A DNA stretch of 64,000 bases from Yuukianura sp. NJ FZ-2021 (Eukaryota). Below the pieces are notes generated by a model that was not told the DNA's origin, made no database searches, and worked only from the letters and a program-made list of their open reading frames with translations. Positions 28,142-64,000 of this stretch are shown piece by piece. The stretch lies in the NCBI GenBank assembly GCA_046563655.1, contig CM102284.1, positions 7,998,001-8,062,000 on the forward strand, given 5' to 3'. Position 1 is the first letter of the stretch, and each line of letters starts with the position of its first letter. The position numbers and the translations under genes are program-made.

Positions 28142-28601
28142 GCTTTCAAAAATGTCGTGTTTCAAGTTAGTTTAGTATGATTGTAATTCGAAGACAATAA
28201 CGAACCGAATCTAATTAATTGATGAATACTTAATTATAACACACCAGCTTGGTTGGCCTTAAGAATTGCAATTAAATGGTGGAATTAACAAATAAAATTG
28301 TAGTTTAGTCAAGAAAATTGCATTTACACAAAGATTTATTAGTAAATAAACTTCAGCAATTTAAATAATACTTCTCGATACTGAAAATAAGTTAACGAAC
28401 ACGGTTTCTTTAAGCACTCGGTTTCATTGAAAAATACGAACATTTAAAACGAAAGATGTCGTTCAGCGTTAATCATCAATCGTTAAATTGCGAGCAGGAA
28501 TGTTACTGGTGGTGTACATAGTAAAAGCTACAGGTCCAGAAGTATTGTAAGCAAATCCACTACAAGAAAAAAGACGCCGATGTGATCGTGCCACTGATTG
28601 T

Positions 28602-41400: not shown

Positions 41401-44400
41401 TGTAACTATGTTTTCCATTTAATCAGAGTTGGTACAGTCCCCAGTCACATAATTTTTGGGTTGGAGGGAGTAACTATGGCTTGGACGGCGGGAGTAACTA
41501 TAAGTTAGGCCTGTGTGCAGGGAGTAACTATCCCTTTGGACCGAAAGTAATGAATCAGAGTCCACTAAATATAAAATTTCGTGCCTTCCACATAACTCAG
41601 GCGCTTCTAGACAAAGAAAAAACAAACAAACACTGTCTGTTTGTTTTTTCTTTTCTTCCAACCTTTAAACAAGGCCGGTTTCTTTTGAACTGGAGAAAGT
41701 CCAAGGTTTTAGTCGGAGATAAAAGTCTCTAAGTGCCTCTTCACTCTCCTTTTCTCCAGAATCCTATAATGTCCAGACACTAAAAATGGACCAAGGGGGA
41801 TTATAACTAATTCCAATCTCATTTCCAAGTCCAAGCGCCACAATCAGCCAAACAATGTCATTAACCCCCCCCCCCTAAAACCTGACCCCCCCCCCTCTTG
41901 ATTCTTTGAAAAAACTAACTTTGGGCGAAGTTTCTTCGAATTAGATTTTCTAAGTTCCAATTTATGATAATTGGAGTCCAGTCGAAAGGGATTTCTGGGC
42001 AGTAGGAGGACAATGATCTGTTGGTCAACTTGGCTTTTTAGAAAAAACGAAAGAAAACCGAAACGGAACGGAAATTCGGGTAATATTTTACCCCCCCCCC
42101 CCTCCCCTTCGTTGCTAGCCATACCCTGGACCCCCCCCCCTTGGGTGGGGAGCGGTAGAGAGCCCTGGGAGAAAATGAAAGTGTACAGAGGCCATTAAAG
42201 GAGCCCATTTAGATCTCCAATCTCACAGGATCTGAGAGAAAGTAAAAAGAGAGAAAGTCTCATCCTCTCGTACCCCCCCCCCTTTCTCCGCAACCCCCCC
42301 CCATGACCAGACTATGTTTTGCGGAGGGGGGGTGTAATTAGCGTAAATAAACAAGGATCTTTTTGGTACCCAGAAGGACACGCAGGAGTCGCATTAATTT
42401 CACTCTTCTCCGTAACATTGGTTGTAATGACTGTAAATGGCGGGAGAAAGAAAGTTCTGGTGTAAAACAACTAGAAAACGCACCAAGTGAAACTCTAACA
42501 CGCAATTTGGAATACTAAAATCCGCTCTTAAAGACTAAAAAAATTTTTTTGAAAAAGAAGATTTCAAAATTTCCAAGAGCAGCAGAGCTTAGTTTTTAAA
42601 ATTCACTGGACTATGGACTACTTAGCAATTAAAAACTACGTAAAATATAAAAATCGGAACTCCTTTTCCCAAATATTTGAAATTAAACAAACCTTAATGA
42701 AAAGTAAACTAAAAGTTCCAAATTCGTTAGTTTTCTCTGCGTTTAAGCAGTTAAGGGCCCCTGGCCAGAAGATCAATAGCCAAAGGGGGCCCTTAATTAC
42801 ATTCTGCCCTTGTTATTTTTTTAGTCGTGTGAACCTTAAGTCCCCTCGCAGTTTGAAGTTGTTTTTCACTTTCTGTGTGGTTGGTTTGTGAATTTGGTTT
42901 TTGTGGAAGTAGGGAGTGAACTAATGCAATTCCTGAGGGCAACTTAAATCCCACGGCTTTCCCCTTCTCGTTTCATCTTCTCAGTCGTTAGTTTGAACTC
43001 TGGCGGCTCAACTCCAACTTCCCACTTTCTTTTATTTCATCTCGAGGTTGATTTTCACTTGTGACTGATTAGGCCTAGCACTGTAGTTACTCCCTCCACC
43101 AGTAGTTACTCCCTCCAAGTCCAACTTTTGATTAAACTTTCACTCCTGCCCTCCACCTTCTCTCTATGGAGCCAAGGAGGTCATGGCTTGTGTCACAAAT
43201 TGAATTAACTCACACACGACCAACAAGATAGCCAACTACACCCACACATCTCACATGAATCAATTTTTAAAAATTTAGACTTTGAACGTTTTCTGAAGAA
43301 AAGAAGAAGATGTTTGTTGACATTTAACACAAATTTTTCAATTTTTCCAAAAAAGGAAAAGTGGAGAAAGTTGTGATGTGATTTTTCCTTTGAATAAAAA
43401 ATGTTGAAGAAAGGCAGGGAAAAATTGAATTTCCTTCTTTTTTAAATATGCAACGCACATTGTACAGAAATGTGCTGAAGCACAGGAGAATTTTTTTTCC
43501 TAAAAATTTTCTCTCTTGGATTTGGAGAAAGGATGGGCTTGAATTTTCAGTTTCGAGCGGGAGAGAGAAAACTCAATTCAAATTTTCCGTTTCCTTTTCC
43601 CAAACTTTTAGTATTTTTTTGAAAAAGCGTAGAGAGTGGTTTCTGTTTCGAGAGAAAGGCGACATGTGTGTTTAGTTTCGTGGCTCCAGCAGATGCTTTC
43701 CCTCACTTCCTCTCTCCCACAATAAATACAAAGGCGCAAATCTATAAAGTATTGGAGGGAGGAGGAGGAGGAGGAGGAGGGAGGAGGAGGGAGGAGGAGG
43801 AGGGGGACAGTAAGCATCAGTCACCATTTCAACAGAAAGACCCTAACAATCCAATTCAAAATTCACCAGGAAATGTAACCCGACTCTTCTTCTCCTTAGT
43901 GAAAGCAGATTCTAGAAATATTGTAGAAAATGCTCTAACAAGAAACCAGAAGAGTTTAGAACGAGAGCAGAAAATCCTGGGAATTCTAGACTGGAACTCT
44001 TGAATTTGAGCTACTATTGAAGTAAGACGAAAGATCTTGAGTGAAAGTAACTCCTACACTCTAACATTTGAGAAGATTCAATAATAGTCAAAGCTCCTTT
44101 CAATTTATTTTATGCTAATGCCAATTTTACTTTCTCTTTCCATTTAGTCAGTTCCATTTCAATCTTCCGCGAATTCCAAAAAATAACTTTACTCTAGAAA
44201 CCTAACCTTTACGTTACAGAACGTAAGGTTCAAGTTAGTTTTTTGGCCTAAACCTTTATGTTAGTTTTTGGCAAGTTTCACACTTCGTGAGTCCTTAGTC
44301 ATGATACAGAGTTATAAGAAGTGTTGGCAGTTAGTGTCAGAGGAAACGAGGAAATGGGGAAACGAGGAAACTGTTTTTGCCTATGCTAGGTTTCTTTTTA

Positions 44401-47400
44401 GCTCACTTTGGAAAATGGCGGGAGAAAGTTGGAATGAAGCCGTTGAAGTGGAACTTAATTTGAAATCATAATTTAGCGTCAGATTGAAAACATCTCCTCT
44501 CTTTTGTTTATGAAATTCAAAATGGATGGATTCACAGATGGCGGGTTTCCCAGAATGGGAAAACAATAGAACAACTTTACCCCCCCCCCCCTTTCGTCTA
44601 ACCCCTCCCCCCTTCCGTTGGAGCTAGGGGGGGGTCACGAATTACTTTGAATGCTAATTCTACTAAAACTCCCAATTTTGGTAGCTGTTGCTCTGAATTC
44701 GTTACAGAACCTTCAAAATTCAATTAAAGGCGTTCCAAATTAAGTTAATTTGTAATTAAACATGCAACACTTGTAACTTCTTTAACCTCTTGAGTACCAA
44801 ATACAACAAAAGTTGCAATTTTTTAAATCCCTTGGAGACCAAATACAACTTTTGTGTAAAATTTTTGCACTCCCACGTGGACCAAATACAACTTTTGTGA
44901 AAAATTTTTGCACTCCCGCGGGGACCAAATACAACTTTTGTTGCAAAAGCAAAAAAAAAGGCACGGAGACCAAGTACAACTTTTGTCGCTGTTACGTTTT
45001 CTTCAATAATTGTTACGAGCCAAAAGATGATTTCCGTTCAGCATATCATCTAGGGATTTGGATGAAATTTTAACCAGTTGTTAGCGTCAATAGTGAGATG
45101 AGTTTGGCCAATTTTCATGACACTAGAAACGATAGGTCACGGAGCGTAAGGGGTCAAAAGTCACCGTGTCATCCTATTCCGACCTTATGCAAGTAGCATA
45201 TCGTTGCAACGGGCTTGACCTCCGGATTCAGAAAATATGTACTATATGTTCCTATCTACGACGTATGACAATAGAAGTATTACGCCGTGGAGCCAAAACA
45301 GAGGCGATAGGGACACACGAGTGAGTAAGTCTTTCTGAAACCGGTAAATCCGGGAAAATAATTGACCATCGATATTTTTGAAACTTGACATGATAAAAGA
45401 TACTACCAAAATGGAATTTTCGGCTACTGATTTCGACCTTTGACCTTCAAGATGGCGGCCAGGTGAGGGCAAATTTGGTAAAACTAGCTTCTTTGGGCCA
45501 AGATAACTCATGAACGAAGCCACATATCGACATGGGGTCAACCGCAAATTGAATCCCTTAGAATTCTCCATTTTTCTTGTGGTGTCTCTAGGTGCCCTTG
45601 ACCTTAGAGGTCAAGGGTCAGCCCCTATGACAACGCTTGGCAAGTAATACTTCATTGGAAAGCTCTCGTCACGCCGATTTATAATATATATAGGTGTAGC
45701 GACTGTCGAGTCGCCCGCTGACCTACAGAGGTCGAAGTATCCGTTGGAGGGCCGTAAGGTCGCTCTGTGACCTCTGTCGTTCAGGAGGCGACTCGAAAGT
45801 CGCTACACTTATATATATTCCGAATATTTTCGTTATCTGGCGTCATAGATAGCAACTTATATGTTTTCTGAATCTTGAGTTCGAGCCCGTATCAACGATA
45901 TGCTGGTTGCATAGGGTCGTCATAGGGTGACACGGTGACCTTTGAACCCCCATGCCCTGTCACCTTTCGCTTCTAGGGGCTCAAAATAGACCAAAATAAT
46001 CGCACTATCGACCCTAACGGTTAAAATTTCATCAAAATTCGACCAACTATGATTTTATTAGGATTTTGGGCCATACCCTTTCGTTGAAATATGAAAAATA
46101 TGAAACGATGAAAAATACGGGTCAGACTAAAAGGTCAAAAATCGGAGCGTATGTTAACAGTATGGGAAAAGGGCAGAATTTTATGTTACGTTAGAATGGC
46201 TTAAAGGCCAGAATTCCTCCGCTCGTGTGAATGCGAGAGCTTCCTACACTCCATCCGCTCATGAAGCTCTCAATTGAGCTAAAAACCAGAAATTATGCGC
46301 TCCGACCGCTCATATGGACTAAAAAATTTGTCGAAAATCTGTTATTCTTGCACATTTTAGATTTCATCGGAGTACCCTAAGCGACGCTGCGGCGCTAAGA
46401 ATTTTAATTCTTGTATGGGGAGCAGTGGGGAGAGGAAGAAATACAAATTCCCACCAACTCCCAATTTCCATGCCCTGGTGTAAAGATCTCAAGCTGTACA
46501 CACTCCATTACGCTTCAAGCTTCATATGGCCTACCATTATCCGCCTCTCATAAAACGGAAGAGTACGCGTAGACAGTAATTGTTTATATAATGGCCGAAA
46601 CGCATAAAATCCCACAGCTATATCACTAATTGTTGACTTCTAGGAGTGACCTATTGCATGTCAACTTTAGTATTTATGACGTGTGGGCGCCAGCAGGCTT
46701 TACCTGACAAATTTGTTGAGATTTGTCCGGCTTAAATTAATTTTTTCCGGACAAAACTCAATTTCGTCCGTCCAAACTGGATATTATACGGACAAAAGTG
46801 GCATTCAGATGGCCAAAAAATGCTCAAAAGAGACAAGTTCGGCTAAAAACAAGTTTTATATAAATTTATAACGTCAGTAAGCATTTCCCGGTGTGAAAGC
46901 CGATTACAAACGAATACTAGGTTTTGACCAAATTATTTGCTAATCCGTACCTATGTGATATGGGCTAAAAGGCCGGAAATTGTAGCGTCAGAACTCCGTT
47001 CCAGCCGTTCATTGGGCGAAGAAGCAGTAAATTTGTTCGGAAAACCGGTTCGTTGCTAAATATTCCGGAGCAAAACGGAAGCGATGCAAATGTTATGGTT
47101 TTATTTGACTTATAATAAACATGATGCCTAATCATCGTGACATAATCTTTGGTTGTTAGAACCGTACCGTTTCGTCGAAATGGAACGGTATTTTGATACA
47201 CTAACTAGTTAGCTAATGTAATTGCGAATAACACCACTTTATAAATAAGCTTTAGTTATGCACAAAAGCCATACCGTTTTGTCGAAACCAAACGGTATCT
47301 TGATACACCGATAAGTAAATTACATCACTATAATTACAGCCTGTACTTAAAGTTTAACTTATTTCCAAAAACCCTGCCGTTTCGTCGAACTGAAACGGTT

Positions 47401-50400
47401 TCATGATACACAAACGAGTTAAGCAGTTAAGTATAATTAAAGTTAAAATTCACACCTTAACTTACTTCTGAAACTACCGAAAACCATTTCTAAGATTTAT
47501 TTTGAAATTTTTTCTTCATTGATCTCGACCAATGATTAACAGAAGTTAAAGAATTCTTTGCTCGCTTGTCTATGAGGGTATCGTTTCGGTACGGTTTTTG
47601 TGCATAACTAAAGCTTATTCCTAAAGTTGTAACTGTTATTCGTAATTACGTTAACTAACTTGTTAATGTATCAAAATACCGTTCCATTTCGACGAAACGG
47701 TACGGTTCTGATGACTAACTAGTATGTCACGATGATTAGTTATTATGTTTATTATAATTCAACAAAACGTTTTGCTTATGTCTTGTTATGATACCAGAAC
47801 ATTCGCATCTGTTCCGTTTTGTTCCGGAATCGAAGGGCGACAAACCTGACAAAAAGCTTAAATACATTTTTAAAAATATTAACTCGGTCCCAGCAGGATT
47901 TCAACAAAAAAATACGAAGTCCCTGGGAAATTTTCGAATTTTTCATTTGAGTCCCCCCTGGCGACCATCAAAAAACAATCAATTCCCCCCCAAAAAAACA
48001 ACAAAAATTAAATTGGTACTCAAGAGGTTAATTAAAGTGCAACCAAAATTAGTCCGAAGATCTACGTAATCATTGCCAAAATTTGGAAACCATTTCGGTA
48101 GCACTGTAAACACTATCCGGCTTTTCCAATTTTCAAAATTTGTTCCGCATTTCATAATTTTTTATGAAAAATTGGAAAACTTTTTTTTTTGTAAAAAGTT
48201 TAGGAAGCCGTAACGACCTATTTGTTAGGAAGTGTGTGTATGGTTAGGTTTTGTAAAAAAGAGTTTGAGTTTTTGATGTTGTGGTCCCAGCAGGGGAAAG
48301 CCATCGTCTTGCTCCTGCGGATGATAAAAGATCGGCTCTGATGATCTTCTGAGTGCTAAATTTTGGCCATTTGTAACCTCAACTTCAGCCGCTCTCAAAG
48401 TAGTAAAAACGGAAGTTAGACTATGGTTTTAGGTTGTAACCTAATAGGCTAAGAGACGTGTGTTCACTCTCCACTTTCTCACTTTCTAGGCTCGACGCTC
48501 GAGGTGGTGAAAAGTTTGTTAGAGAGGAGTTGCATGATGCATGAGGTGCCAAGAGACGCAGGGCAGGCACTAATCATCCCATCACACACTCACACTCTAA
48601 TACTTCCTCCACATCACTCTTTTTCAAAAATGTCAAAGTTCAAGTTTCAAAAAAATTAGGATTTTGGGAATGGACATGATGAGGTTAGAAGGCAGGGTTT
48701 CAGAGCAGGGAGATAACAGCTCCCTGGTGAGAGCGATTCCTCCGAAATGGTTAGATGTGGGTTCGAATCCAACTCAAGCCAGATATTTTTATTCTCTTTC
48801 TTTCAAAATATAGGCGGTACAACTGTGCAGTGTGCATCGATTTGACACGACTCACATCCTTCATCATTACGAGAAATGCAAGTTACCCGCTTTGTCTCTG
48901 CTAAGATTTCTTTTCCAAGCCGGTTTTTGTTGGAAGTAGGAACAATTTTCGGTTTTCATAACTCTTAAAATTAAGTCTTAAAATGTTGAAACGAAGTGCT
49001 AAAATTGTGTTGTGGTTGTTTTTTGTCCTTGTAATGTCCACAATTGCTATGATTGTTCTCATGAATGAACAGTGTTTTGTTGGAGGTTGGACAGTGGACA
49101 GAGGAGGTTTAACCACCACTCCATTGTGTTTGACAGGAACACCGAACTTCCCCAAAAACGGACTTGTTTACCCGGATTCCGCTCCTGTCCGTCCCTCCGG
49201 AATTTATTTCATTTTCTCTCTCCCCGGCAAAAACTTTTCCCTCCAAGCCTCCAAAACACAAAAACCCGCTCTTTTTTTCTCTTACTTCAAGTGAACTTAT
49301 AAGCAAGGAGAAAGTTTTATTTGGGTCAGGCGGTTAATGTTTTTCAAAAAACCATTTACTCAAAACAACTGCGTAAATCAGAGTCTGGGCAAAAAGAGGC
49401 CAAGGAGAAAGTGTGTGCGTAAATTCAGAGGAATAGTTTAATTCCCATTAACTTTAAACCCTCTCCTGTCTTTTTCAAATCGTTTGGAACCTAAAGGACA
49501 GAAGAACGGAACATTCTGAAGTGTGGCGTTTGAAGTTAACCGATTTATACCTTAGAGTAGTTGGATTTATGAGGGAGAGATGCTTTCCCCCTGCCACCAT
49601 CTGTCTCACTCTCCTTCTCATGTGTAAAATATAATGTGAAAAGGAATGTCTCTCGAGAACCAAGTCTTCATTCCACCAAACAACAAGATCTATTACCCCC
49701 GCCCCCCCCCTCTTTTGCCCCCCACCCCTCAAAAAAAAGTAATGCAAGTTTTGTGAATTTTCAAAAATTCAAAAAGTGTGGGCTTTTCATCAGATTTGAT
49801 TTTGTCACTAACGAAAAGTAAACTCATTCCAAAGAAAGAAAAATCACAAATTAGTTAAAAAAATCCAATTTTTTTTGGTGTTTTATGTAATTTGATGTAA
49901 ATTTTATGTAAGCTAGATGTCGTTTATGTAATTGGTGTCTGAGTGAAAGCGGAATGTCTTGTTGGCCGTACATGACAAAATTGTTTGCTGTTTACTTTCG
50001 GAAATCAATTTGGAAGCATTGGAGCGTTCAATTGAGTAAACCGAGCACCATTAGCGGAGAAAGCAATTTCATGTTTTGACAGAAGTGAAGGTGAAGGTAC
50101 CATTTGAGGTACCAAGCAACTGACAATCAAGGTACCCTTGGTACGCCAGGGGTAATGAAAGGAAGTACTCAAGTTTAAACAAAGTGCCTGGGACCCTTCA
50201 AGTCATCACCTTAACAAGGTACCGTCAAGTACCCACTTTTTTCACTGACTATAATGACAGGAAATCAACCCGCGAAAAGTTTCAAATTTGAGCCCACCAC
50301 TTAGCATGATTAGCCCAAAACGCTAAGTGAAAAGCGTGAGTTGGGCCACTTTCACTTCCAAACCCCTTTTGTTCTTTTCTGATCATGTTCAAATGGAAAC

Positions 50401-53400
50401 ACGAGTTCGTGTTCAAACAAAACCCAGTTTTAAACTTGTTTTGAACAAAGAAGGAAGCGGGAAAGTTGAAAATGGGATTTGAGACACGAAGAATAAACAC
50501 GGGAGGAAAAGAGGCAATCAGGAGATGACCGTTTCCCGCCAAAATCCAAAATTCCCTGGAGACCGTAGGATCTTCATTACACTTTCTCCTGCTTCCTAAA
50601 AATATACGGCCGCCGGAGGTTCTTATTGGATTTGATGTCATCGGCTTCGCCCTCAAGCGGGCTCCACATGCCTCCCGGTCTTACCCGCCTAAAAACCCGG
50701 GTTTTTTTCAGTCCTCTCCGAAAAAACAAGCCTCTGAGACCAATTCAAATTCAGACAATGTTCCATTGAAATAACCGCCGGAGACAGTAAGAAGAAATTT
50801 AAGAAAACGATCTTCCGCTTTCCCCAAAGTGTCATCTGCTCCCTTCTTTCTTCTACTGAACTAAAGGAAGCTCAAAAAGGCGCCCTTTTTAGTATAAAAA
50901 AGGCTCCTCACTTTTAGTACAAAAAGGCTCCTCGTTTTAGTACAAAAAAGTTCTTTATGAATCTAAACTTTTAAGTTCTTTCTCACATTTTCTCAAAAAT
51001 TTGAAACGAGTAGCCTTTCTGTCTGCAGGACATGGCATGTCTTCTGAATAGTGGATGAACCACAGGCTGTTGGTTTTTGGTTACAAAACGAAACTAGACT
51101 TTTTCCAAAAATACTTTTCTAAAAAAAATTGGTTTTGAAAAAAAAAGTTATCCATACTGCATCAAATCTATCTACGTTTTTGGAAACGCATATCCTAGCA
51201 ACAGCACAAACCAACTTTTGAGAGGGAAAGAGTGAAAGTGGAAGCGGCTGGTCATTACGTGTTGTTCAATTTCGGCGCAAAACGTGCTTTCCCTTTGATT
51301 TCACCAAAAACTAAAAAGAAAGGCAAGATTTATGAAAAAGAGAAAGCAAATATGAAAATACTGTCCCGAAGTAACTCTAGTTTTTCAAATTTCGATACTA
51401 TTCCAATCGATTCAAGTTTTTAAAAAAAAAAAAACTTCATCCAGACAACAAAGTTCGATTTTTCATTTCCAGTGGTTGGGCATCTCTGGTATGGGGGAGG
51501 GGGGGGGTCTGCTGAAAGAGGGGGGGGGGTCTGCTGAAGGGGGGGGGGGTTGGAATGCGGTTTGCTCCGCCAAGAAAGTTGGTGACATTCCTGTGGACCA
51601 AAGACCAAATTGGAGTGGTTTCGTCCGAACCCAATTACCTGTGAAGGGAAAGTCATTTAGACTTTGCACAAAGTCACTGGTCAGGAGAAAGTCAGAACAA
51701 AAAAAGTTACTCCCTCCGTCTTTGTATCTGTTCTCATTGGAGAACCCATATTATTACACAGGACAGTTTAAAAGTTCCCTCCGCTAAAAACAACTTTTCT
51801 CAAAGTCTAAAAAGAGAAAGTGGATTGACCAAGAGACTTTGAAAAGTGAAAGTAATCCTGATGGAAAAGTGCCATTGACCAACTGAAGTGAAATTGAGCC
51901 GAAGCAGCTGCTCACTTACAAATCGTTTTTCAGCACAAACAGGATTAGAAACTCTGGATTTTCCAAAGGCGATTTTCTAGATTTTCCAAAGGCGATTTTC
52001 TAGATTTTCCAAAGGCGATTTTCTAGATTTTTTGAAACTAAGTTGTATTTTGGAGAAAGTGGACAGAGAAAGTAGAGGTTTAATTTGGAGGAGATTAATC
52101 ATAGGAGAGCTCCATTTTCAAGGCCCATTAAAACTGAAAGAGCCCAAAGTAATTGCAGAGACTATAGACTGTCTATGAGATTGTAGACATAGACTATGGG
52201 ATTATAGACATAGACTATGGCAAACTATAGACAGACTATTATATTTTATAGTACAGGCATCATGACCATCTTCCCTCTTTCATACTTCATTTACTTCTTA
52301 ATCTCTTCCTCATTTAAGTGAAAATGGAGAAGATTTAGAGGGAAATTAGAAACAGATGCCATAATTACGGAACGAGGCGGAATTTTCAAAAAAATAAATT
52401 ACTCTGCAAACATTTTCAGAAATGTGGAAATGTAGCAAAAACCTTCCTGTTTCCTAAAATTCTCTGCGTAATTATTCTGACATGTCAAAACCAAGCTTCT
52501 GGAATTAAGAAGTCTCTCGTGGAGCGTTCCGGATGTGTTCATTTTTTAAAAATGTTTTCATTTTGTAGGAATTTAACGTCACTGAATTATAATTCTTCAA
52601 CTGAGCATGTAAATTCAAAGAAAGCAAATGCTAAAGTTGTGCTTCGATGCGCTTAGAATAGAAAGTTTGTGTTATAAAAAATTTATAGAATTTATAGAAA
52701 TTAGATTTTTATAGTTCATCTATTTTAAGAAGGCGGGTTTCAAATTTATTTTTGCGCTGTTCCTAGTAGCAACGCAAGTAAAATTTGACGGGTTGAGTTA
52801 CGGCGCGACCAATTTTTCGTACTCAGAAAAGGTAAATTTGAAATTGACGCTAAATTCCTCTGAAGGTTACCCATGGACAAAAGTTTAATTACGACAACCC
52901 ATATCCTAATTAAGTGAAATTTTTTTAAAAACTTAATCGCTCTCTTCTTCGCTGGATTCTGAGCTGGACTCAGTGTCGGATGACGATCCATTTCCCAAAT
53001 CGATAATTATACGATCTTGATTTGTTCTCATAAAGGTATTTGCTAAGTTTTTAGTTTCCATGATTAGGTTTTCTAATTGAATGACATGCAAGCCAGCCAG
53101 TGTTGGTTGACCTCAGGAGATTGAATAACAAGCAATTATGTCAGGAAAAAGATTTCCCTTTACCCATTATTGATGGAAGTAACAATTAATTAACGAAAGA
53201 GAAACAACGTTAAACATAACATAAAATGAAAATAAGGAATTGACCTGTTTTGAACAAAGAAGACACTCGCGCGCAGTTGCTGTTGCACATGTTCCACATG
53301 CGCAACAGCTATCTTAAGTCAACCGGGGTAACAGTACACAGTGGACGGATTGTAAGAAAAAAGTTCGGTTGCTTTTTGTAACAAACTTTAACGACAACGT

Positions 53401-55104
53401 TGCCGTTGACAACTGAGTCGGTTGAAAGAATGAAACAGTGTACAATGTACCCATATACTTGATTGAGGACCGACCCGACAGACCCAAACGACAAAGAATA
53501 AGTTAAAAATTTCAGACTTTGGTTTTTGAAAGTATAGATTTGGCGAGTACAAAGTTGTGACGCCAAGCCTCAATATAACATCAGGTTATGAATACGAAAT
53601 CACAAAATCGCAAATTAAGATTATTGCAACCGAGAAAATAAACAAGAATTTGGAATTACTTTGGATAAGGATTGCTCATTAATTAAGCATTATTCACCGA
53701 TTTGCACCTCAAAATGTTGAAGTTCAAGTCTTTCAGAACGCTAATCACTCTTCGGTTTGTCATTAGAGGGTCAGGCATTTCCAGGCAAAAAATCATTCGG
53801 AACTTCAACTTTCGGGTCAAAATGACACTGATAAATCAGTTTGTTTATGAAATTTATTTGGTTCCCTTAGAGCCAAAAAATAAAAAAAACAACCACTGTG
53901 CAGTAAACAAAAATAAAGCTTTTGCGCGAATTTCAAACCCGCCTTCTTAAAATAGATGAACTATAGTAAGCCCCACCCTTTTCTACCCGCTTTGTTACGG
54001 CTCCCGTGATTGGTTGATTTCAAATACGTGACGCCACTTTCCAAATTTTTCTCATTTATGGAACGTATAAGTTTAAAAAGTGACGTCATAAACTCTATAC
54101 TTTCTATAAATTCTATAAATTCCATAACGGAAACTCCCTAAAATTTGTAAATCCTTAAATTTGGAAGAGTGACGTCATAAATTCTATACTTTCTATAAAT
54201 GCTTATAACGGAAACTCCCTAAAATTTGTAAATCCTTAAATTTGGAAAAGTGACGTCATAAATTTTATACTTTCTATAAATTATTTATAACGCAAACTCC
54301 CTATTATGTAATGTTTATGTTAGGTTATGTTTTGCATGGTTTGTTACCAATGGGAGAGAAGATGTTGAGGTAGAGACAGTCTTCTGCTTGGTTCCTGAGA
54401 AAAGGCTCCACTCGCCTCAAGTAGTCCAAGTACCCCCGTGGCATTTCCTTAAGGGCCTCTGCATCTGAACGCACTTGAGGAAACATCTGAAAACGAATCA
54501 GAGTTAAGCTGGTGATTAACTAAATGGAAAGTTAATTAACAAATCCAGTTAATTAAGTGGAATTAGAGTGCGAACAGTAATTAAAACTCACCTGAGGACA
54601 GACTGGGCCTGGCTTATCTGCTGCCCGCACGCCTTCCCACGGAATCGGGGTTTGCGTAGGCGTAAACCGAATTGGAACGGAAGCATAAGGAATGCCTAGA
54701 AAAACCTGGAACCAAAATTTTAATTTTTAATTTCAAAATTTTGAAATTTTTTTGAAAAGTTACGTTCTTACCTCTACGATTTTATTTTTGATTGGGCCAG
54801 CCGTATGTTGACTAGATTTGGTTCCTAAAAACGGGAAAAGGGACAGGGAAATTCCTTGAAGTTTTCCATATTTTGTGTCAACTATGCGGGATTTGGTGGG
54901 GCCAGTTTCAGCTTGTGATGGTGGGGCTTGGTGGGGCTCCGAGCCACCAACAGTCCCACTTTCATTAGTCATGAACAACGGACTATTAAATGTTAGTTGC
55001 AGTGTAGGATCAGTTTCAATTGATCCGCTTCTGCAACTTAGAAGCGAAGTCACTAAAATCAACAGCACTCCAATCACTTTCTTTTCCGCTGTACTACTCA
55101 TCAT
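32448..55104 (-). CDS. Nlg: Neuroligin (non-catalytic cholinesterase-like synaptic adhesion protein)
   Basis: Exons 55104-54772, 54705-54592, 54486-54348, 40916-40770, 40670-40530, 40258-40199, 39133-38778, 38689-38594, 38514-38384, 38301-38139, 36455-36277, 36207-36028, 35525-35430, 33782-33493, 33019-32448. Signal peptide, [49 protein letters not shown] (no catalytic Ser), TM segment [25 protein letters not shown]-terminal EELNV. Confidence 0.95.
33787..33966. repeat. 38-bp tandem repeat (~4.5 copies) abutting a neuroligin splice acceptor
   Basis: Unit AAATTCAAAAATTCCCAAAATTAAAAGTCTTTARTTCT starting at 33816, 33854, 33892, 33930, plus a partial copy from 33787. Confidence 0.9.
34070..34751. 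mobile_element. Foldback element with AACCGCCG-repeat arms and 8-bp TSD
   Basis: TSD GTTACGGG at 34062-34069 and 34752-34759; arms ~34080-34250 and ~34571-34741 are inverted arrays of AAYCGCCG; central hairpin CCGCGCC-GAA-GGCGCGG at 34335-34351. Confidence 0.85.
36572..37666 (+). mobile_element. Helentron-associated / DINE-1-like element in neuroligin intron
   Basis: SubTIR GTCTTCTGGAG (36578-36588) / CTCCAGAAGAC (37621-37631); 5' internal IR AGTCTTC..GAAGACT; (GTCT)n at ~36633-36655; 3' hairpin ATGCTCAA-CCC-TTGAGCAT (37634-37652); T-rich flanks. Confidence 0.85.
41194..41310. mobile_element. 117-bp Tc1/mariner-type MITE (TA TSD)
   Basis: TIR CAGGGTGGCCCCT / AGGGGCCACCCTG with TA at 41192-41193 and 41311-41312; nested between an older inverted pair TGGTCAACAGCAATTTAG (~41143-41160) / CTAAATTGCTGTTGACCA (~41353-41370). 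Confidence 0.85.
44786..48027. mobile_element. 3.2-kb piggyBac-like non-autonomous element
   Basis: TTAA at 44782-44785 and 48028-48031; perfect 15-bp TIR CCTCTTGAGTACCAA / TTGGTACTCAAGAGG; subterminal GACCAAATACAACTTTTG repeats at ~44837-44985; no transposase ORF. Confidence 0.88.
48708..48790 (+). pseudogene. tRNA-derived SINE head or degenerate tRNA
   Basis: B box GGTTCGAATCC at 48760-48770, A-box-like CAGCTCCCTGGTGAGAGC upstream and TTTTT downstream; acceptor and anticodon stems do not pair properly. Confidence 0.45.
51958..52030. repeat. 23-bp tandem repeat, 3 copies
   Basis: Unit GATTTTCCAAAGGCGATTTTCTA. Confidence 0.9.
52712..53963. mobile_element. 1.25-kb non-autonomous TIR element (TA flanks)
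   Basis: TIR TAGTTCATCTATTTTAAGAAGGCGGGTTT(C/G)AAATT at both ends; TA at 52710-52711 and 53964-53965; internal hairpin GCTGTTGCACATG..CATGCGCAACAGC at ~53279-53309. Confidence 0.88.
54076..54303. repeat. ~81-90-bp tandem repeat (~2.6 copies), each with TGACGTCA
   Basis: Unit AAGTGACGTCATAAA.TCTATACTTTCTATAAAT..ATAACGGAAACTCCCTAAAATTTGTAAATCCTTAAATTTGGAA; an inverted relative lies at ~52655-52711. Confidence 0.85.
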
Positions 55105-56980
55105 TTTTACTAATTTTCAAAAATTGCACATTTCAAAATTTTGAAATTCAAGTTTTTAGAAAGTTGATGAGTTTTTGGTGGGGTCAGAGGTCACTAAAAC
55201 CATTTTGTGGAGAGATGATGATGATGATGACTGGAATTCATTTTTATGTTATGACAGTCCCACTTGCCAGAGTGACGCTAGTTGCGCCTTAATTTGGACT
55301 CAGGTCATTACCATTACGTTGTCAGCACTTGTCTCCTTGCGGTTTTCCAAATTTTGAATTTTCAAATTTGAAATTTTCAAAAATAATGTTCCTTTTAGAT
55401 GTCCAAATGTCGCCAGACACACTTCAATTTCATTTCATCGTGATGTCGCAGCATTTTAGTCGTTGAAGTTCATTTTCAAGATTTTATCTTCACATTTTCA
55501 AATTTGGAACTTGAGTTTCTTTGTGCAGTTTAAAATGGACTTTGTGTTTCCAGAAAACTGAAATTTTGAAGTTTCACTTTCGAAATTTTGAGTTTTGTTT
55601 AAAAGTCGACGTTTTAATTAAGTTTCTGTTTCCGGTGAAATGTTGAGTGTGGTTTGAATGAAGAAAGTCGAAGGTTGGAAAATGTCTGCAACAGGAAAAT
55701 TTCTGAAAAAACGACCAAAAAAGAAGGTTTTTTGAAAAAATCCATTAAATTTTGAAAGTTATAAATAGCCTTGTTCGTAAATCAGGAATCACAATAAGAC
55801 AAAATTTAGGAAAAAATTGGAATCCTTTTGTTCATTTTTCTCCTTCATCGTGTTCCGCCCTAAAGCTTTCTCCTTTGTTCAAAAAAATGTTTCTCAAATT
55901 TCAATTTCAACCTTTTCGTTTTTTGAAAAATTTGAAAGTATAACAATGAGCGGGGAAAATTCAAAATTGAAATGAGCCTCATCCTACAAAAGAAGAAAGG
56001 AGAGTCATTGTTAGATTTGTTCTTTATTGAGCTTCACCTTAACCTGCTCTCTCGTGAATCTTATGAATTTGATCTTCAAAAAACGAAATGAAAAACTAAA
56101 TCTTCTACATCCAAATTTCTTTCGTCTTTTAAGTAGGTTGTAACATTTTTCAGAAATCTCAAAAATTTCAAAAAAAAGTTCCATAAAAGGAATTGAATCA
56201 ATAATGCTCATCTTGTAACGAAAGAAGGAGAAAATGCGGTGAAAGTTTTTTGAAATTTTGAAAAAACGGGCCTTCATCTTCTCTTATTCTTTCGAGATTA
56301 AAGTTGTTCATAATTTGACGACAGTTTTATGGTTCTAGAGTCCTCTTCACAAAATGTATACTTTCTCATAACGACTTTTTTGTGCAAAAAATTGCACATA
56401 CAAAAATTTTATCACTATTTTTTCGCCCCTAAACTTTCACTTTTTACACTTAACGTTCCCAATTAACAACTGAATTTACTACGTTATTAATTTTTTTGTC
56501 ATTTTCATTACCCTTTGTGCCCTGCTGAATTTAGTTTTTTGAAACTTCAAATTTTAAAATTTGAATTGAGGATTCCTCAACCTTTTTCAAAATTTTAAGA
56601 AATCCACTAGCTTCAAAAACAAAAAAACCTTGAGTGGCGTATGAATTATTCCAACTTTTCTGTTTTTTTTTTTAACAAAGTCTTATCTAGTTTTCATATT
56701 TCTAACTTTTTATATTTCAAAGAGGAAAAGTATGAAAAACTAAGCCATTAGGAAGATCAAGTTTGTGTTCAAACTTTCCTCGCTCGTCTTTCACAAATTT
56801 TTCTCGTCTTGTAACAAAAATTCGAAAAGAAAGTTGAAGTGCTTGTCTCCCTTCATTTGAACTTCGGAAACTCTAATTCGGCCAGAAACCTCTTCGTCCT
56901 AGCCAACTTTCGCTCAAAACCTAACCTAAAACACATGTCAACCTAACATATCACTTCAATCAACTAATAACTATGTCAAA

Positions 56981-57000
56981 AGGTCATTGACCTTTGACCT
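56981..57000. promoter_or_regulatory. Candidate nuclear-receptor element (IR1 fused to DR1)
   Basis: AGGTCA-T-TGACCT (perfect IR1, EcR/USP-type) overlapping TGACCT-T-TGACCT (DR1), ~1.9 kb 5' of the neuroligin ATG. Confidence 0.4.
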
Positions 57001-59515
57001 TGTTAGGAATGCATGGCAATGTTCAAAAGTAAGTGGAAAGTAGAAAACTAGTTTCAGAGTGAAGTTGGATCGTCAATGGCAAAATGATGGATGTAATGAT
57101 TGTGCCAATTTGAGGGCTGTTTTTGCTTTCACCGCCGCCACTGCGGCGGTGTGTGACAAGTGAAAGTGAAATTGTGAACTTTTTTTTTCGTTCGTGGCGG
57201 AAGAATCGAATGGAGATTAGGACCTACGTGTCACTTACACAACTCTGCATCATTACGTTTCATTCCCGTTTTCACCATGCAAATGCTACACAACATAGTT
57301 TAACATTGGTCGCAGAGCGGCAAAGTTTGAATTCCTTTTGTACTGATTACGAAGGTGACGAAAAGTGTCGACGCTCCGTTAAGTGTCGAGAGACTTCGTT
57401 TCCACTTGAATTTGAATTTAGATGCACCACTTCTACACGGCGATGCTCTCAAAACTACGAAAGTGCTTTTTTTATTTTTGAACTTTGGCTCTCTTTTTAG
57501 CCTAACGTTAGCCTAACATTAGGTTAGGGCATAACCTAACTTCTGAGTTAGGATAAGGAAGATTTTTGGTAAAGAAAGCTCAGAAAAGCTCCCTCGTGCC
57601 CACCATCAATCATTCAGCGATTTCTCCCTCCTGACTCCAACTCTCTGACTTTAATCAGATGAGGAAATCTGAGCTCCTACATAGTTACTCCCTCCGCTTC
57701 TTTTTCCAACATAAAAGTACTTTCTAGTCAACTGGCAACTGGAATCGAAGAAAAGGTGCTTTCCCTAGTATGATGACTTTCACAACAACTTCCACCAGTC
57801 ACACAAAATACAGTTTCAATTTCCGCTTCTTTACAAGTTCTAAAAAAAGCCCGCCGAAACTTTTTTTCTGCAGGAGAGTGAAAGAAACCGTTCGACTTTC
57901 TCTTTTTTTCTGCCGTGAATTTTTGAGCCAAAGGAAATCCGTTGTCGTTTTTTAAAAAAACGTGGATTCTGGTTGTCGTTTTTTGAAAAAAGTGGATTCT
58001 TCATGAATCTCATCTCTTGTGCTGTGAGTTGACAAATCCGATGGGATCATTCCATCAAAAGAGAAAGCTCAGCTCTTCCATCCGACTCATCCTTGGCATA
58101 TCTCTTTTAGTCGTCTTAAAGGTACCTTCTTCGTTCCAAAGGACACAAAGGGCCCCCTCCCCTTAGACTCTGCTGTTCTTCCGCCACCACTTCATCAATT
58201 GAATCTACATCCTCTTAGGTACAGTGATCGAGTCTACCTTGGATCCATTTTTACAAAAAAAAAAAAAAGTCACGTGAAAGTTGGAACTCTGGAGCATAGA
58301 AAGTTTGGAGTGAAAATTTGGATGGAATTTTAGTTTGTGAAACACTTTGGCCTTGTTGATGCGTATGATTTAATTTTTTGAAAATTTTTTCGTCCAGAAA
58401 AAAAAATCAAGTGATGGAAGCTTGAATTGATGAGAAGAGAGAAAGTGAAAGTTGTTTGAAACTGACGCTACTCGCGATGTTCTGGTTCACTGTACCAACA
58501 CGCGAAAAAGTTAGGGTTAGCAAACTCCGCTATCAGGTCAAAAACAATTAGGTAAAAAAAAATTAGTTCAACAATGCATATCAAATTTATCTTTTCAGAG
58601 GGAATTTTTCAGAAAATTTAAATAAACCAAATTCTAGTTGACCCATTTCAGTTGACCCAATTACTGTTGATCTAATTGCATCAAAAATCAAGTTTCATGA
58701 AACCAAACCCTGCAGAAAGGCGTCAGTGGCTGGGAAGCTGTGGGTTTGAAGGCCGAAGTGACAGAGATCAATGATGGTGCAAAGGCTTGCCAAAAACCTC
58801 TTCTTCCGGCCTGCTTTCTCCTCACTTTTATTATTCCTGATAAACTACTATTATGTGCACTTGTCTTGCGTTTTTTGGAGGGAGTAACTATGTCCTCTGC
58901 TGGAGGGAGTAACTACGTCTCTGAATTATTCCCCATAACATATCCAATAACTCTGAAACTAAAAAATAAAGGAAAACAATAGGGGAGAGGCCCAATTGAG
59001 AAGAAAAAGAGAGGAGCCAAGTGCTTTTTAGAACATAAACTTCAAGGAGGATGAGACAACACACAAAGGAAATTCCAACAGACTTTCTTTCAAAATCCGT
59101 TTTTTTCTGTGCTTTGTTCAAATGACTCTTGAAGAAAGTAGAACAATGGAAACTGGGCTTCTTTTGTTTTTAAACTTCCTTTTCTTCTTTTCTCTTCAAA
59201 ATAAAATATCACCGGTATTTCCTCTCACCACTTCCGCCCACTTTCTCTTACGTGCTTTCCCTTTTTTTTTCTTGCCAAAGTGGAAACAATGAAACTGAGC
59301 CGCTCTAGAGTTTTTTTTAGAAAAGGGCCAAAAAATAACATTGTTTTTAAAAAACTTTTACTTTTTTCTTTGAAAACGATAATGGTTTATCCTCTGAGTT
59401 GGATGAAAGAAAAAGTAATGTCCAATACTGGAACAACTTTTTCTGGAAGGTTCCCACGCGTAAGAGATAGGTTGAGCCTGGAGGATGATCGTATAAAAAC
59501 GACACTTTCACTTTT

Positions 59516-59592
59516 ATTGTACGAAACCAAAAGGTTCCGCGTGAGAAAAGTGATATTGTACGAAACCAAAAGGTTCCGCGTGAGAAAAGTGA
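59516..59592. repeat. 39-bp perfect tandem duplication
   Basis: ATTGTACGAAACCAAAAGGTTCCGCGTGAGAAAAGTGA present twice. Confidence 0.9.
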
Positions 59593-60253
59593 GGGTCTAA
59601 TCAAACAGTAAAACATATGCTTTGGTCGGCACTATTTAACAAAAGTAGGTTACTGCAAACGACCTTATCTGATGCGGGAGAACGAAAAAAAAGGCGGGAA
59701 TATAAAATCATAAAACGAATGTTTTTATTTTTTGAAAAAAAGTGATGAAAAAGACAGATTTGGGCAGAATAGAAGAGTGGCAGGAGAAAAAAGAATTTGG
59801 GTTGAGAAGAGAAAGTTTTTCCGGTTCAAAATTTATTTTGTTATGCCGAGTTTTATTCATGAGACTAAAAAAAGAGGAACAAAGTGCTATAAAATATTTC
59901 ATGCATTTTGATCATTTTCTCCTCGCTTCCTTTCTCTTTCCGCCTAATTTTCTCCCGTTCCGTCCACCTTTTGAACTCAAATTACACTCAATTCTGTCTC
60001 TTTTAAAAAATAAACATTCAAAAACTGTGTTTTGTTTGAAAAAGTGTAATTTTAGAACAAAAATTTCAAAAATAAACTTTTGAAATTGGTGCGTCACGCA
60101 ACTTTCTTTTAGGTGAAAGGAAGGAAACACATAAATAATAATTTAGTTTAAATATTTAAGCATTTTGAGTTCCAATTTTATCTCGACTTGTCTTTTTTCT
60201 CTCGTTTACGCTTTTCCGTTTATTCACGTTTACGCTTTTACTTTTACGTTTTT

Positions 60254-60496
60254 ACCAAGGTGCGTAGACAAAAAAAAACTTATCCTACATCAGGTTGTCC
60301 AATAACTCCATGTTTTAAAATTTGTTTGAAAGTAGGAAATCTGTCTTTCTCAGGTAATTTTTTGAGTGTAATGTAAATGAGATTGATTGGTGCTAAATTG
60401 GTGTCAAAAGTTGTTTGAAGCAAGATTTTTGAAAAACCCTGAGTTGTTGGACAACCTGTTGTAGGAAATACAATTCGGCTGTCAAATAACCTTGGT
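60254..60496. mobile_element. ~240-bp MITE, copy 1
   Basis: Ends ACCAAGG / CCTTGGT; internal IR TCCTACATCAGGTTGTCCAATAACTC / GAGTTGTTGGACAACCTGTTGTAGGA; homologous to 61540-61772. No clear TSD. Confidence 0.75.
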
Positions 60497-61460
60497 TTTA
60501 CCCCAGGTTTTACGTTCTAAACTTTACATATTTACGTCTGCGTTTACGTTTTCCATCTCGTGGTTCCTAATTTGGGAAGTTAATGAATTCCGTCCATTAA
60601 ATTTCCTCACCTCTGGCTTCCTAAGTTCTCATCATAATCATCTTTGTTTGACCAAATAAAGTCCCGCTGTGGGCAAAACTACCAACTTTCACCTCATCTC
60701 TTAACAGTTGATTCCTTGTGCATTACATAACTTAATCTGTGCTTTCACTTTATAAACCTATGCTTTCTCTACTTTCTTCAGTTCATGCTAATTAACAAAC
60801 TCACCAGCACCAAAACTTTTAGACGATTCCTTCCACAAAGAAAAGAGAAAGTAACCATGGTTACGCTTAACTTTGGATAAGCTTCGGCTACTTTTGCATT
60901 TGACTTTACGAGCTCACCAGAGGCCCTTAAGTCCTCCAGGCCCTTAAAACCCTGCAGTTGGACTTAGAAAATGGAAAAGTTAGTTTCTGGAATGCTTATA
61001 AAATTAAACCGAGTTTTCTTTTCAACTGTTACAAACAGACGAGAGAAAGTCTCCAGCAAACTTTCACTTCCAAGTTCAAAATTCTGTTGGTTGTGCTTAA
61101 TTCCTTTTGACTTATGATAATAATTTACACATCTACGAAGTTCCCGCCTCGTAAAAACAGTCTCCTGCTTTTTCATAAACTTCCACTTCAAAATCCCTTA
61201 CTTTCTAATGACTATCTCTTCCTTTCTGTGCAGAAAGGAAGAGGGAACGTGAAATTCTGGGCCAACACAAACCGAAGTCAAACAATAAATCAAGTTTTGG
61301 TGTCAGTTTGAATCAGAGAAAAGCGTAGCTCAAATAGTTACTCCCGCCGACTTTCCTTGCGGAACCGCTCTGATATTTTCCATACTGTTCCGAAACCAAC
61401 AGCACCGCACGAAAGATGCTTCTTCGTTCGTGTATTGTCTGCTCTACCTAAGTGAAATTA

Positions 61461-61832
61461 CCGTAAAACTTCTCATAAATTCCCAGGCGTTTATTTAAAA
61501 TCTCAACTCTTACCCTCCGGCGTTTAATAGAGAGTCCGTACCAAGGTTGGTAGACAAAAATTTTTTTCCTACACCAGGTTGCCCAGTAACTCGAAGTTTT
61601 AAAATTTCTTTGAAAAAAAATCTGCCTTTCTATGGTAATTTTTTGCATGTAAATTTAAGTGGGATTGGTTCAGAAATTTGTTTGAAGTAAGATTTTTGGA
61701 AACCCTTAGGTATTGGACAACCTGTTGTAGGAAATACAATTTGTTGTATTTCGGTTGTCAAGAAACCTTGGTTCCTACTTTATTAGAGACCCGGCGCTTA
61801 TTATAGACAAGCCTTTATTAGAACTTTTACGG
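61461..61832. mobile_element. TA-flanked CCGTA-ended MITE carrying a nested ~233-bp MITE (61540-61772)
   Basis: TA-CCGTAAAACTTCTCATAAA ... TTTATTAGAACTTTTACGG-TA; the inner element is copy 2 of 60254-60496. Confidence 0.75.
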
Positions 61833-64000
61833 TACGCACTTTCTCCCGCTTTTTTTGAACTGTAGAATATGTGAGTAAGTTTGACTCGCGAGTGCTGAGT
61901 GATATCAGCCTTCGTTTTTCGTGTCTAAAAGGCTCTTTTTTCCACAAAAGAATGGAAGTTCAAAATGTAAAGTGGGAAATTCTTTTGCTGCGTCTTGTAG
62001 CATATAAATCATTGGGGAATAAAATAGGAAAGGAAGAAATTCTCCTCTAAATTCCTCTTCTCGGTTGAACCAAAAGTGAAAAGGAAATGCGTTTTAGAGC
62101 ACCATGCTAAACATTCCCAAACTTTCTACTTTTTCCCTTTTCCACACTTATTTCTTCAATCCAAAACAAGAAAAACGGGGTGACTTGACTTGCAACCTTT
62201 TTTTAAGCAAGAGAAAAATGGCGGGAAAGAAGTGGTGAAAGGCATTTTCCTTGGTTACGAAAAAGTTTCATGACTATTTTGGAAGGGCACGACTTTTAAA
62301 TAAAAAAGGAAGAAAAAATTTCACTTTTTAGCTGTTTTTTCGAAATGTATTGAGTTAGGTAGAAAAAAAATGTGTGGCCCGTGCTTTAAAAAATGTTAGG
62401 TCATATGTTGGGATGTTGGGGTTGAAATTTTTCAATTTTTCTTTTCAACTTTCTGTTTTGCTCTCCTGAAATTTGAGTAGCGTTGAAAGTCAATTCTGCG
62501 AGACGAAGGGAGTAACTACAGTGTGTTTGAAAGGAGAAATGAAAGTGGTCCATCTTGCAGAAGAGGCATGACATTCCTAGCGGATGTCTCAGACTTTATT
62601 AGACTTCTGCCTAACCTAATGGTTAGGGTAACCTAACGGTTAGGCTAACCTAATGGTTAGGCTAAAAGTTAGCCTAACGCTTGTGAGCCTCCAATGATGA
62701 ATGTCTTCTTTCGTCAAATGTGAGTGAAAGTGGCAGGGAAGCTCCAGTCATGAATTTCCGTCAGCAGTCCACTTTTTGTGAATGAATAAACCCAGCTTCC
62801 CAAATGTACAGTACGGCCCGCATAAGTAACAAAAAGAACAAGGTTTGTTGACTTTTGATTTTCTTTAACAGGTTGAGTAATATTACATGTTTTTGGATTT
62901 TCCAAAAAAAGTATCTTTTGATTTAGGGGCATCGTAGTCGTAACAGCACAGCCATTTCTTTCAATTTTGCATTCGAATTCATACCAATTTTTTGGATTAG
63001 TAAGTACTATAAATTAGTACTAAATTTGTTTGTGTTTTTTTTGTTAACAAGAGAGCTAGTACCCAACCTGTAAAGAAAATTAAGTTTTCGTTGTCAAGGA
63101 ACCTTGGAAAAAGAACAAAGAGAAGGTGCTTTGAACAATTTTTTTCTCCGTTAGTTATTTCGGACCGCACTGTACATCCCTTTTTCTATTTGAAAATTCA
63201 GTGCACACTGCCTTATATTCCTAAAGACCTGGAAATTTTTAGAGAAGCCGTGGGATTCGAACCCACAACTACCACAGGAAGGATGGAGCGGGAAAGTGAA
63301 AGCGTGCATGACTCCTGCCGTCTCGTTACATTCCTCTGCAAAGTTGGGCGAAGCGCGAAAATTCAAAAAAGTGAGGTTTTTCCTTCCTAGAAAAAAGTAG
63401 GGTAGTAAGTTTGGACTTTGAGAATCTCACTTTTTACGTCTCGCGGGAGAAAGGAGATGATTGAATTCCAGAGCCACACAAAGGTTTTTAGATCGTCGGT
63501 TCGTTAACTTTTTCCATTTTGGAAAAAAAGAAAATTGGCATACGGTTTTTGGCGCTCTTTTCACCAAACTCGGTCGTAGTGAGTGTGAAATTTGATTTAA
63601 TTCACTCCTCCTGCCGTCCGCTACACACAAGGAATGGAATGCATATCATTTGCATCATTTCACTTTCACCCAAAATCCGCCAAAAGTGGAACTTATGTTG
63701 TTGTTATGTTGAAAGTTTGGAAGAAAAACTGAAACTCCGGCCATTCGCTTTTCAAATCGAACAAGACCACCCTTCTGTCGCTTCCCAAGGTTCCTTGACA
63801 ACGAAACGTTAATTTTATTTAACAGGCAGCGTACTACCTCGCTTATGGATAAAAAAGGAAAAAAAAACAGCAGAAATTGGTATCAATTTGTATGCAAAAT
63901 TTAAAAAAAAAATTGCTGTATTGTTATGACTACGATGCACTGAAATGAAAAGTTGCAAAATCGAAATAGGATGAGGTATTACCCAACCTACAGAAAATCA

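What the first reader, a model, noticed from the sequence alone, without database searches (positions are those of the whole stretch)
41463..62518. Eleven copies of a 14-bp motif GGAGGGAGTAACTA confined to the neuroligin introns and upstream DNA
Seen: copies at 41463, 41487, 41517 (+ triplet), 43084, 43103 (- pair), 51704 (-), 57682 (-), 58877, 58902 (+ pair), 61335 (-) and 62505 (+). The core GGGAGTAACT is invariant, flanks are unrelated, both orientations occur, and clusters are spaced 19-30 bp. I saw none in the gene-dense first 32 kb and none inside the identifiable transposons. Inference: homotypic clustering of a long motif around a neuronal gene resembles the site of a multi-zinc-finger regulator (neuronal silencer or insulator/tethering factor). 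I do not recognise it as a known motif.
Basis: partly seen in the sequence, partly recalled or inferred. Interest (0 to 1): 0.75.

Follow-up and report, generated by a model that had tools for sequence, protein, structure and literature searches.

The report
rDNA terminator-like motif used genome-wide
The 14-letter DNA word around this neuroligin gene is real but not specific to nerve genes: it occurs well over a thousand times in this springtail-like genome and is stacked where ribosomal RNA transcription should stop and start, which suggests one unidentified protein both ends rRNA transcription and acts at many ordinary genes, as Reb1 does in yeast.

Summary
All 11 copies are at the stated coordinates (chance 0.1). 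The motif is genome-wide: 854 exact 14-mers and 1,812 core 10-mers, against 0 and 138 for reversed controls. Sites are non-coding (57 of 58), have unrelated flanks, form same-strand clusters and lie beside many non-neuronal genes. New here: each of 6 main-type rDNA spacers read carries 11-15 copies on the minus strand, starting 41-46 bp after 28S behind a hairpin and a T-run, and 4-7 plus-strand copies on the promoter side. This is the anatomy of TTF1/Reb1 terminators. A frequent variant is identical to 28S helix 69, where R2 retrotransposons dock. Best reading (0.5): the site of a Reb1/Sap1-like factor that stops Pol I and acts as a roadblock or boundary elsewhere. No TTF1 orthologue or R2-derived reader was identified; binding and termination are inferred, not shown. 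Transposon-end and neuronal-silencer readings are poorly supported. The scan's notes and my literature searches did not show this motif described as a binding site.

The parts
41463..41476 (+). motif copy, exact; first of a same-strand triplet in the large neuroligin intron
41487..41500 (+). motif copy, GGC form; with its flanks identical to 28S helix 69 over 17 nt (41485-41501)
41517..41530 (+). motif copy, GCA form (also the last promoter-side box of the rDNA spacer)
43084..43097 (-). motif copy, exact
43103..43116 (-). motif copy, exact
51704..51717 (-). motif copy, last base T
57682..57695 (-). motif copy, exact, 5' of the first coding exon
58877..58890 (+). motif copy, exact
58902..58915 (+). 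motif copy, exact
61335..61348 (-). motif copy, GGC (28S) form
62505..62518 (+). motif copy, GAA form (the commonest form in the rDNA spacer)
32448..55116 (-). neuroligin-like gene, approximate coding span; context only
40920..54330 (-). 13.4-kb intron (approximate ends) holding six copies in both orientations

Best explanation
The motif, consensus Y-GG(A>C)GGGAGTAACTA-T, is the binding site of one abundant sequence-specific nuclear protein that works like yeast Reb1/Sap1 or mammalian TTF1. In rDNA, Pol I runs through 28S into a 3' hairpin, then a T-run, then a tandem array of protein-bound boxes; it pauses there and releases the pre-rRNA, and the array probably also stalls oncoming replication forks. 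The inverted array on the promoter side shields the spacer or promoter from traffic in the other direction. At about 1,500 dispersed non-coding sites, such as the 11 around neuroligin, the same protein binds without a release T-run and most likely acts as a roadblock, boundary or nucleosome-positioning factor. Shown: the motif, its counts and its placement. Inferred: a protein reader (about 0.8), Pol I termination, fork arrest and the role at dispersed sites.
For: 854 exact copies against 0 reversed and about 0.5 expected; core 1,812 against 138. Among 48 non-exact dispersed sites, positions 7-12 vary 0-1 times each and positions 2-3 vary 11 and 25 times. Flanks of 126 sites in 47 loci gave one cross-locus match, a duplicated gene. 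43 of 44 neighbours within 300 bp share a strand. 1 of 58 sites falls in predicted coding sequence. First box 41-46 bp after the 28S end in 6 of 6 units, including a diverged one on C4, behind a 13-bp hairpin (z -2.7, 4 of 200 shuffles as stable). A T-run of 6 or more ends 11-17 nt before 10 of 11 and 12 of 12 28S-side boxes in two units, against 6 of 126 dispersed sites (background 7.8%). Yeast termination uses hairpin cleavage, a T-rich element and the Reb1 site in that order (PMC3045592, passages); mammals have 10-11 TTF1 sites after 28S plus one before the promoter (PMC12326227, section 1.1); S. pombe Reb1 and Sap1 also bind sites outside rDNA (PMC5368702, passages). Box clusters persist beside two diverged promoter-region copies, 87% and 89% identical in the ETS.
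Against: No TTF1/DMTF1/Reb1 orthologue was recognised among 10 and 16 Myb-family matches (assigned by eye); the DMTF1_N search was uninformative, its controls being silent too. The promoter-side boxes are inverted relative to the 28S-side boxes, whereas mouse T0 and T1-T10 face the same way (recalled). A box in the putative terminating orientation lies in the 5' region of an intact R2 element that should need Pol I read-through. Drosophila rDNA was reported to have no fixed termination point (reference title only, seen). The model does not explain the identity with 28S helix 69. No binding, RNA-end or cross-species data were obtained. Conservation of boxes among spacer subrepeats is partly circular, as the subrepeats were picked by the motif.
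Confidence: 0.5

Rival explanations
1. The reader is an architectural factor (insulator, nucleolar tether or chromosome-pairing protein, probably multi-zinc-finger). The spacer arrays are boundaries or enhancers, not terminators, and dispersed clusters loop to each other or to the nucleolus.
For: A 14-16 bp asymmetric site in tandem same-strand clusters; clusters group at under 20 kb more than expected (18 v 8.3 on C1, 35 v 13.3 on C2); CTCF divides the mammalian spacer (PMC12326227); both orientations occur in one intron.
Against: A CTCF-like orientation rule failed: the bias seen on C1 was reversed on C2. The hairpin, T-run, box order after 28S is not needed by an insulator. The lean to gene-poor DNA was not significant (p 0.13).
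Confidence: 0.22
2. One reading: a DNA-binding module taken from an rDNA-targeting mobile element, or a host guard that covers the R2 docking site, later redeployed to the spacer and the genome.
For: The 28S sequence matches the consensus over 16 nt, using the second commonest base at position 3; rough chance 1e-5 for that pattern, chosen after the fact. It overlaps the R2 upstream motif at -34 to -22 and the zinc-finger contact at -23 to -18 (PMC10499050, passages). The genome holds an intact 1,110-aa R2 with two motif variants in its 5' region.
Against: R2Bm needs the central GC, which falls on the two most variable motif positions and is mostly GA here (854 v 112 copies). A search with the R2 zinc-finger/Myb region found only the element and one finger of an ordinary zinc-finger gene (2 matches of 8 candidates); a profile search of this genome was not available.
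Confidence: 0.13
3. Neuronal silencer or neuron-specific regulator site (REST-like).
For: High density around neuroligin; Ig, PTP/PDZ, sushi and ion-channel genes lie near some sites.
Against: Many neighbours are metabolic or housekeeping genes and the densest arrays seen are in rDNA spacers. No enrichment test on an annotated gene set could be run; 19 of 36 loci gave no Pfam hit, so their host genes are unknown.
Confidence: 0.06
4. The boxes mark replication origins or fork-control sites, and transcription is incidental.
For: rDNA spacers hold an origin and fork barriers (PMC5368702); about 1,800 cores in 98.7 Mb is of the order of animal origin spacing (own knowledge).
Against: Sites are patchy: 210 of 302 64-kb bins on C1 and C2 have no exact copy.
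Confidence: 0.05
5. Ends of Stowaway-like mariner MITEs: GGAGGGAG is the terminus, TA the duplicated target, and ACTA a palindromic target preference.
For: The only 2 metagenome hits to a tandem pattern look like grass Stowaway ends (the terminus is recalled, and five papers hold the word, search listing only). Some pairs face outward as element ends would.
Against: In 5 of 5 outward pairs the inverted repeat stops within 0-4 nt of the motif; no shared internal sequence between loci; the supposed target half is better conserved than the supposed terminus; tandem same-strand clusters are not explained.
Confidence: 0.04

Closest known systems
Mammalian Sal boxes / TTF1 (T1-T10/11, T0, Tsp)
   Same: About 11 boxes in tandem just after 28S and further boxes before the promoter (PMC12326227 section 1.1; here).
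   Different: Unrelated sequence; promoter-side boxes inverted; about 1,500 sites outside rDNA; no TTF1 orthologue recognised.
Yeast Reb1/Nsi1 terminator, and S. pombe Reb1 and Sap1
   Same: Hairpin, T-rich element, then protein site after the large rRNA (PMC3045592); the same factor binds rDNA barriers and many other sites, and Sap1 also binds retrotransposon LTRs (PMC5368702).
   Different: An animal; longer motif in 11-15 copies instead of 1-3; dispersed sites are mostly intronic or intergenic clusters, with no promoter or poly(A) signal enriched nearby; reader unknown.
R2 retrotransposon upstream motif (RUM) in 28S
   Same: The GGC variant equals 28S positions -29 to -14 and overlaps RUM (PMC10499050; target sequence printed in PMC11601368).
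   Different: The information lies in AGTAACT, 3' of RUM's central GC, which is degenerate here.
CTCF-type and Drosophila insulator sites; REST/RE1
   Same: Long asymmetric motif, about a thousand or more sites, tandem same-strand copies.
   Different: No likeness to the consensus motifs as recalled (no motif library was available); no orientation rule; not tied to neuronal genes.
Stowaway / plant mariner terminal repeat
   Same: GGAGGGAG followed by TA.
   Different: No longer inverted repeat, no element body, conserved ACTA(T) beyond the TA.

Membership tests
TTF1/Reb1-type Pol I terminator | protein-site boxes just downstream of the large rRNA 3' end | tested here: met
   first box 41-46 bp after 28S in 6 of 6 units; 11-15 boxes per main-type spacer
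TTF1/Reb1-type Pol I terminator | T-rich release element shortly before the box, and a 3' ETS hairpin | tested here: met
   22 of 23 28S-side boxes in two units; hairpin
TTF1/Reb1-type Pol I terminator | further site(s) upstream of the Pol I promoter | tested here: inconclusive
   4-7 boxes ending about 1.28 kb before 18S, but inverted, and the start site is not mapped
TTF1/Reb1-type Pol I terminator | bound by a Myb-repeat protein of the TTF1/DMTF1/Reb1 family | tested here: inconclusive
   none recognised; three divergent multi-Myb genes stay unassigned
TTF1/Reb1-type Pol I terminator | polar arrest of Pol I and of replication forks | not testable with these tools
   needs RNA 3'-end mapping and 2D gels
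R2 upstream motif (RUM) | central GC and A at -31, fixed distance to a cleavage motif | tested here: not met
   GA dominates at these positions (854 v 112); no conservation 5' of position -1
Stowaway/mariner MITE ends | terminal inverted repeats longer than the tip and shared element bodies | tested here: not met
CTCF-like loop anchors | orientation rule between neighbouring sites | tested here: not met
   C1 bias (p 0.017) reversed on C2 (p 0.013)
REST/RE1-like neuronal silencer | enrichment at neuronal genes | tested here: inconclusive
   mixed neighbours in 17 of 36 loci, no hit in 19, no annotated background

The most novel reading that the evidence does not exclude
A springtail-like lineage has a DNA-binding factor whose specificity was cast on the universally conserved 28S helix-69 sequence, the docking site of R2 and other rDNA parasites. 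The factor, a captured targeting module or a host guard, then replaced TTF1 as Pol I terminator and recruited more than a thousand sites into a genome-wide regulatory network, while the resident R2 acquired copies of the site in its own 5' region.
Probability: 0.15. Interest if true: 0.88.

Novelty: new variant of a known kind. Interest (0 to 1): 0.62.

Why it matters
My searches found no description of a Pol I terminator box or factor in an insect or springtail. A sharply defined 14-16 bp box with yeast-like terminator anatomy makes arthropod Pol I termination directly testable: one oligo pull-down would name the protein. If the same protein serves about 1,500 other sites, an animal has a Reb1/Sap1-type general regulatory factor. 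The identity of the box with the R2 docking site offers a route to how hosts and rDNA parasites compete for one sequence.

Tried and rejected
Orientation rule between neighbouring clusters: seen on C1, reversed on C2; rejected. Gene-poor preference: predicted coding fraction, median 0.11 in 34 motif loci v 0.18 in 20 control loci, p 0.13; not established. Co-motifs within 150 bp of 70 clusters: none passed Bonferroni, best AACCTA 21 v 10.6; TATA, Inr, DRE and poly(A) signals not enriched. Dispersed copies as 28S fragments: 4 non-rDNA sites share the 17-nt word and end there. R2-derived reader: not found; homologue searches gave R2-type proteins without genomic context or nothing. Three divergent multi-Myb genes: no relatives found, only generic Myb likeness at 0.84. 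A guessed Pol I start site was not conserved in two diverged copies. Conservation in other species or strains could not be tested: 4 DNA runs from 2 studies hold the region, no RNA holder listed, and no reads were laid. The metagenome scan gave 2 plant-like hits; 26 single matches in viral contigs were not followed. A Shine-Dalgarno-plus-ATG reading was dropped: G follows the T in 22 of 126 sites and the host is a eukaryote. Earlier notes of the scan showed nothing on this motif.
Full report
Observation. The core GGGAGTAACT occurs 11 times against 0.10 expected, and none lies before 41463. Flanks do not align. The host gene is neuroligin-like on the minus strand. Six copies lie in one 13.4-kb intron, in both orientations, and five lie 5' of the first coding exon.

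Genome-wide. The window is C2:7,998,001-8,062,000 of a 98.7-Mb animal assembly. It is probably a springtail: my reading of the 18S start is recalled, and two earlier scan notes say the same (unchecked). The exact 14-mer occurs 854 times, the reversed control 0 times, about 0.5 expected. The core occurs 1,812 times against 138. Of the 854, 537 are followed by T and 430 have T on both sides. In 126 sites from 47 non-rDNA loci the base before is T or C in 115, and nothing further out is strongly conserved. Among the 48 non-exact sites, positions 7-12 vary 0-1 times each and positions 2 and 3 vary 11 and 25 times. These loci were mostly picked on exact copies, so allele ratios are biased. BLAST of masked flanks gave one cross-locus match, a duplicated phosphatase gene. 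On C1 and C2 (89 and 104 exact sites, rDNA left out), 43 of 44 neighbours within 300 bp share a strand, and the window's bin is among the densest 4 of 302. One of 58 sites falls in predicted coding sequence. I scanned the 300 most protein-like of 1,732 frames from 36 loci: 17 loci gave Pfam hits, mostly not neuronal, and 19 gave none.

The rDNA spacer. The first genome hits lie in an rDNA array. Six main-type spacers read carry 11, 12, 11, 11, 11 and 15 boxes on the minus strand in about 63-bp subrepeats after 28S, then 6, 6, 7, 6, 4 and 6 boxes on the plus strand, ending about 1.28 kb before 18S where measured. The first box starts 41-46 bp after 28S in 6 of 6 units checked, including a diverged unit on C4. 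On the transcribed strand the order is a 13-bp hairpin, a T-run, about 13 nt, then the box. The T-run precedes 22 of 23 28S-side boxes in two units, 6 of 12 promoter-side boxes on the opposite strand, and 6 of 126 dispersed sites, which is background. An inverted ETS fragment at the array end (87% identical) and the C4 unit (89%) keep box clusters at the same place.

The 28S match. The GGC variant with its flanks is 28S helix 69, positions -29 to -14 from the R2 site, seen in the intact C4 unit and in the target printed in PMC11601368 (passages). It faces the same way as the promoter-side boxes, so a polar terminator would let Pol I pass it. This form has 112 copies, 2 of the 100 listed in rDNA. 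A rough chance of such a match is 1e-5, for a pattern chosen after the fact. An intact single-finger R2 (1,110 aa) sits at the canonical site on C5 and has two variants of the motif in its 5' region. R2Bm reads -34 to -22 and needs the central GC (PMC10499050, passages). That GC falls on the motif's most variable positions, so R2 protein itself is an unlikely reader. No stand-alone R2-type zinc-finger/Myb gene was found, by a single-sequence search of limited reach.

Mechanism. A long, asymmetric, non-coding word with a hard core, soft edges and no shared flanks is best read as a protein site (about 0.8). Its placement after 28S copies the yeast terminator, hairpin then T-rich element then Reb1 site (PMC3045592, passages), and the number and double position recall TTF1 boxes (PMC12326227, passages and section 1.1). 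S. pombe Reb1 and Sap1 show that such a factor can also act across the genome (PMC5368702, passages). I therefore propose a Reb1/Sap1-like factor: Pol I terminator and probable fork barrier in rDNA, roadblock or boundary at dispersed sites (0.5). All function is inferred. Against it: no TTF1-family gene was recognised among 10 and 16 Myb matches (names given by eye), the promoter-side boxes are inverted, one box in the terminating orientation lies in the R2 5' region, and the 28S identity is unexplained. Three divergent multi-Myb genes (C2:3.37 Mb, C2:4.07 Mb, C4:5.65 Mb) could not be placed and remain candidates.

Rivals. Architectural or nucleolar-tethering factor (0.22): fits the clusters, but an orientation bias on C1 reversed on C2. 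Reader born on the 28S target (0.13). Neuronal silencer (0.06). Origin marks (0.05). Stowaway-like ends (0.04): the likeness is real, but inverted repeats stop at the motif in 5 of 5 pairs.

Novelty. A full-text search for four motif strings gave 60 papers; I saw the listing and abstract openings of 40, which concern R2/28S oligos or unrelated subjects, and none presents it as a binding site (20 not shown). Searches on springtail or insect spacers, terminators, insulators and TTF1 distribution gave nothing on it (listings only). PMC3849761 (passages) shows another 28S element, Pokey, carrying spacer-derived repeats, a partial precedent for the R2 copies. The library lacks most subscription journals, no supplements were read, and no motif database was available. 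I rate it a new variant of a known kind: known logic, new sequence, new taxon, reader unknown. Conservation across species was not tested, which is the main gap.

Noticed in passing
L001/L013, L004/L014, L007, L010, L015 (C1) and L044 (C5), 28S gene: 6 of 7 uninserted 28S copies examined lack the same 156 nt (80 before to 76 after the R2 site, the helix 68-71 region); the C4 copy is intact; the R2-bearing copy lacks only the 76 nt after the element, with the same right break. Probably trimming during assembly clean-up, but the right break lies near the R1 region (60 bp plus a 14-bp duplication in Drosophila, PMC3414825 passages), so a real deletion is not excluded.
   Followed up: partly
L042:2490-7058: Full-length R2 element with one zinc finger and a 1,110-aa open frame; about 45 nt at its 5' end recur, slightly changed, near its 3' end.
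   Followed up: partly
L043:640-1650 and L015:6800-7800: The same inverted, diverged ETS/promoter fragment with its own box cluster closes the rDNA array on both C1 and C5.
   Followed up: partly
L039, L040, L041: Three divergent multi-Myb genes, SNAP190-like by eye, with no relatives found.
   Followed up: partly
L050:5123-5136: One motif copy supplies the TAA stop of a 379-codon open frame.
   Followed up: no
L077:2-2050: Aromatic amino acid lyase frames with long uninterrupted exons beside ETS and P450 genes; possibly a horizontally acquired gene.
   Followed up: no
L074 and L075 (C1:4.33 and 4.88 Mb): Inverted duplicate of a tyrosine phosphatase locus, 98% identical around the motif.
   Followed up: no
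window 13837-15529, 27342-28175, 34010-34773: Short tandem-repeat or MITE-like arrays giving repetitive open frames; none holds the motif.
   Followed up: no
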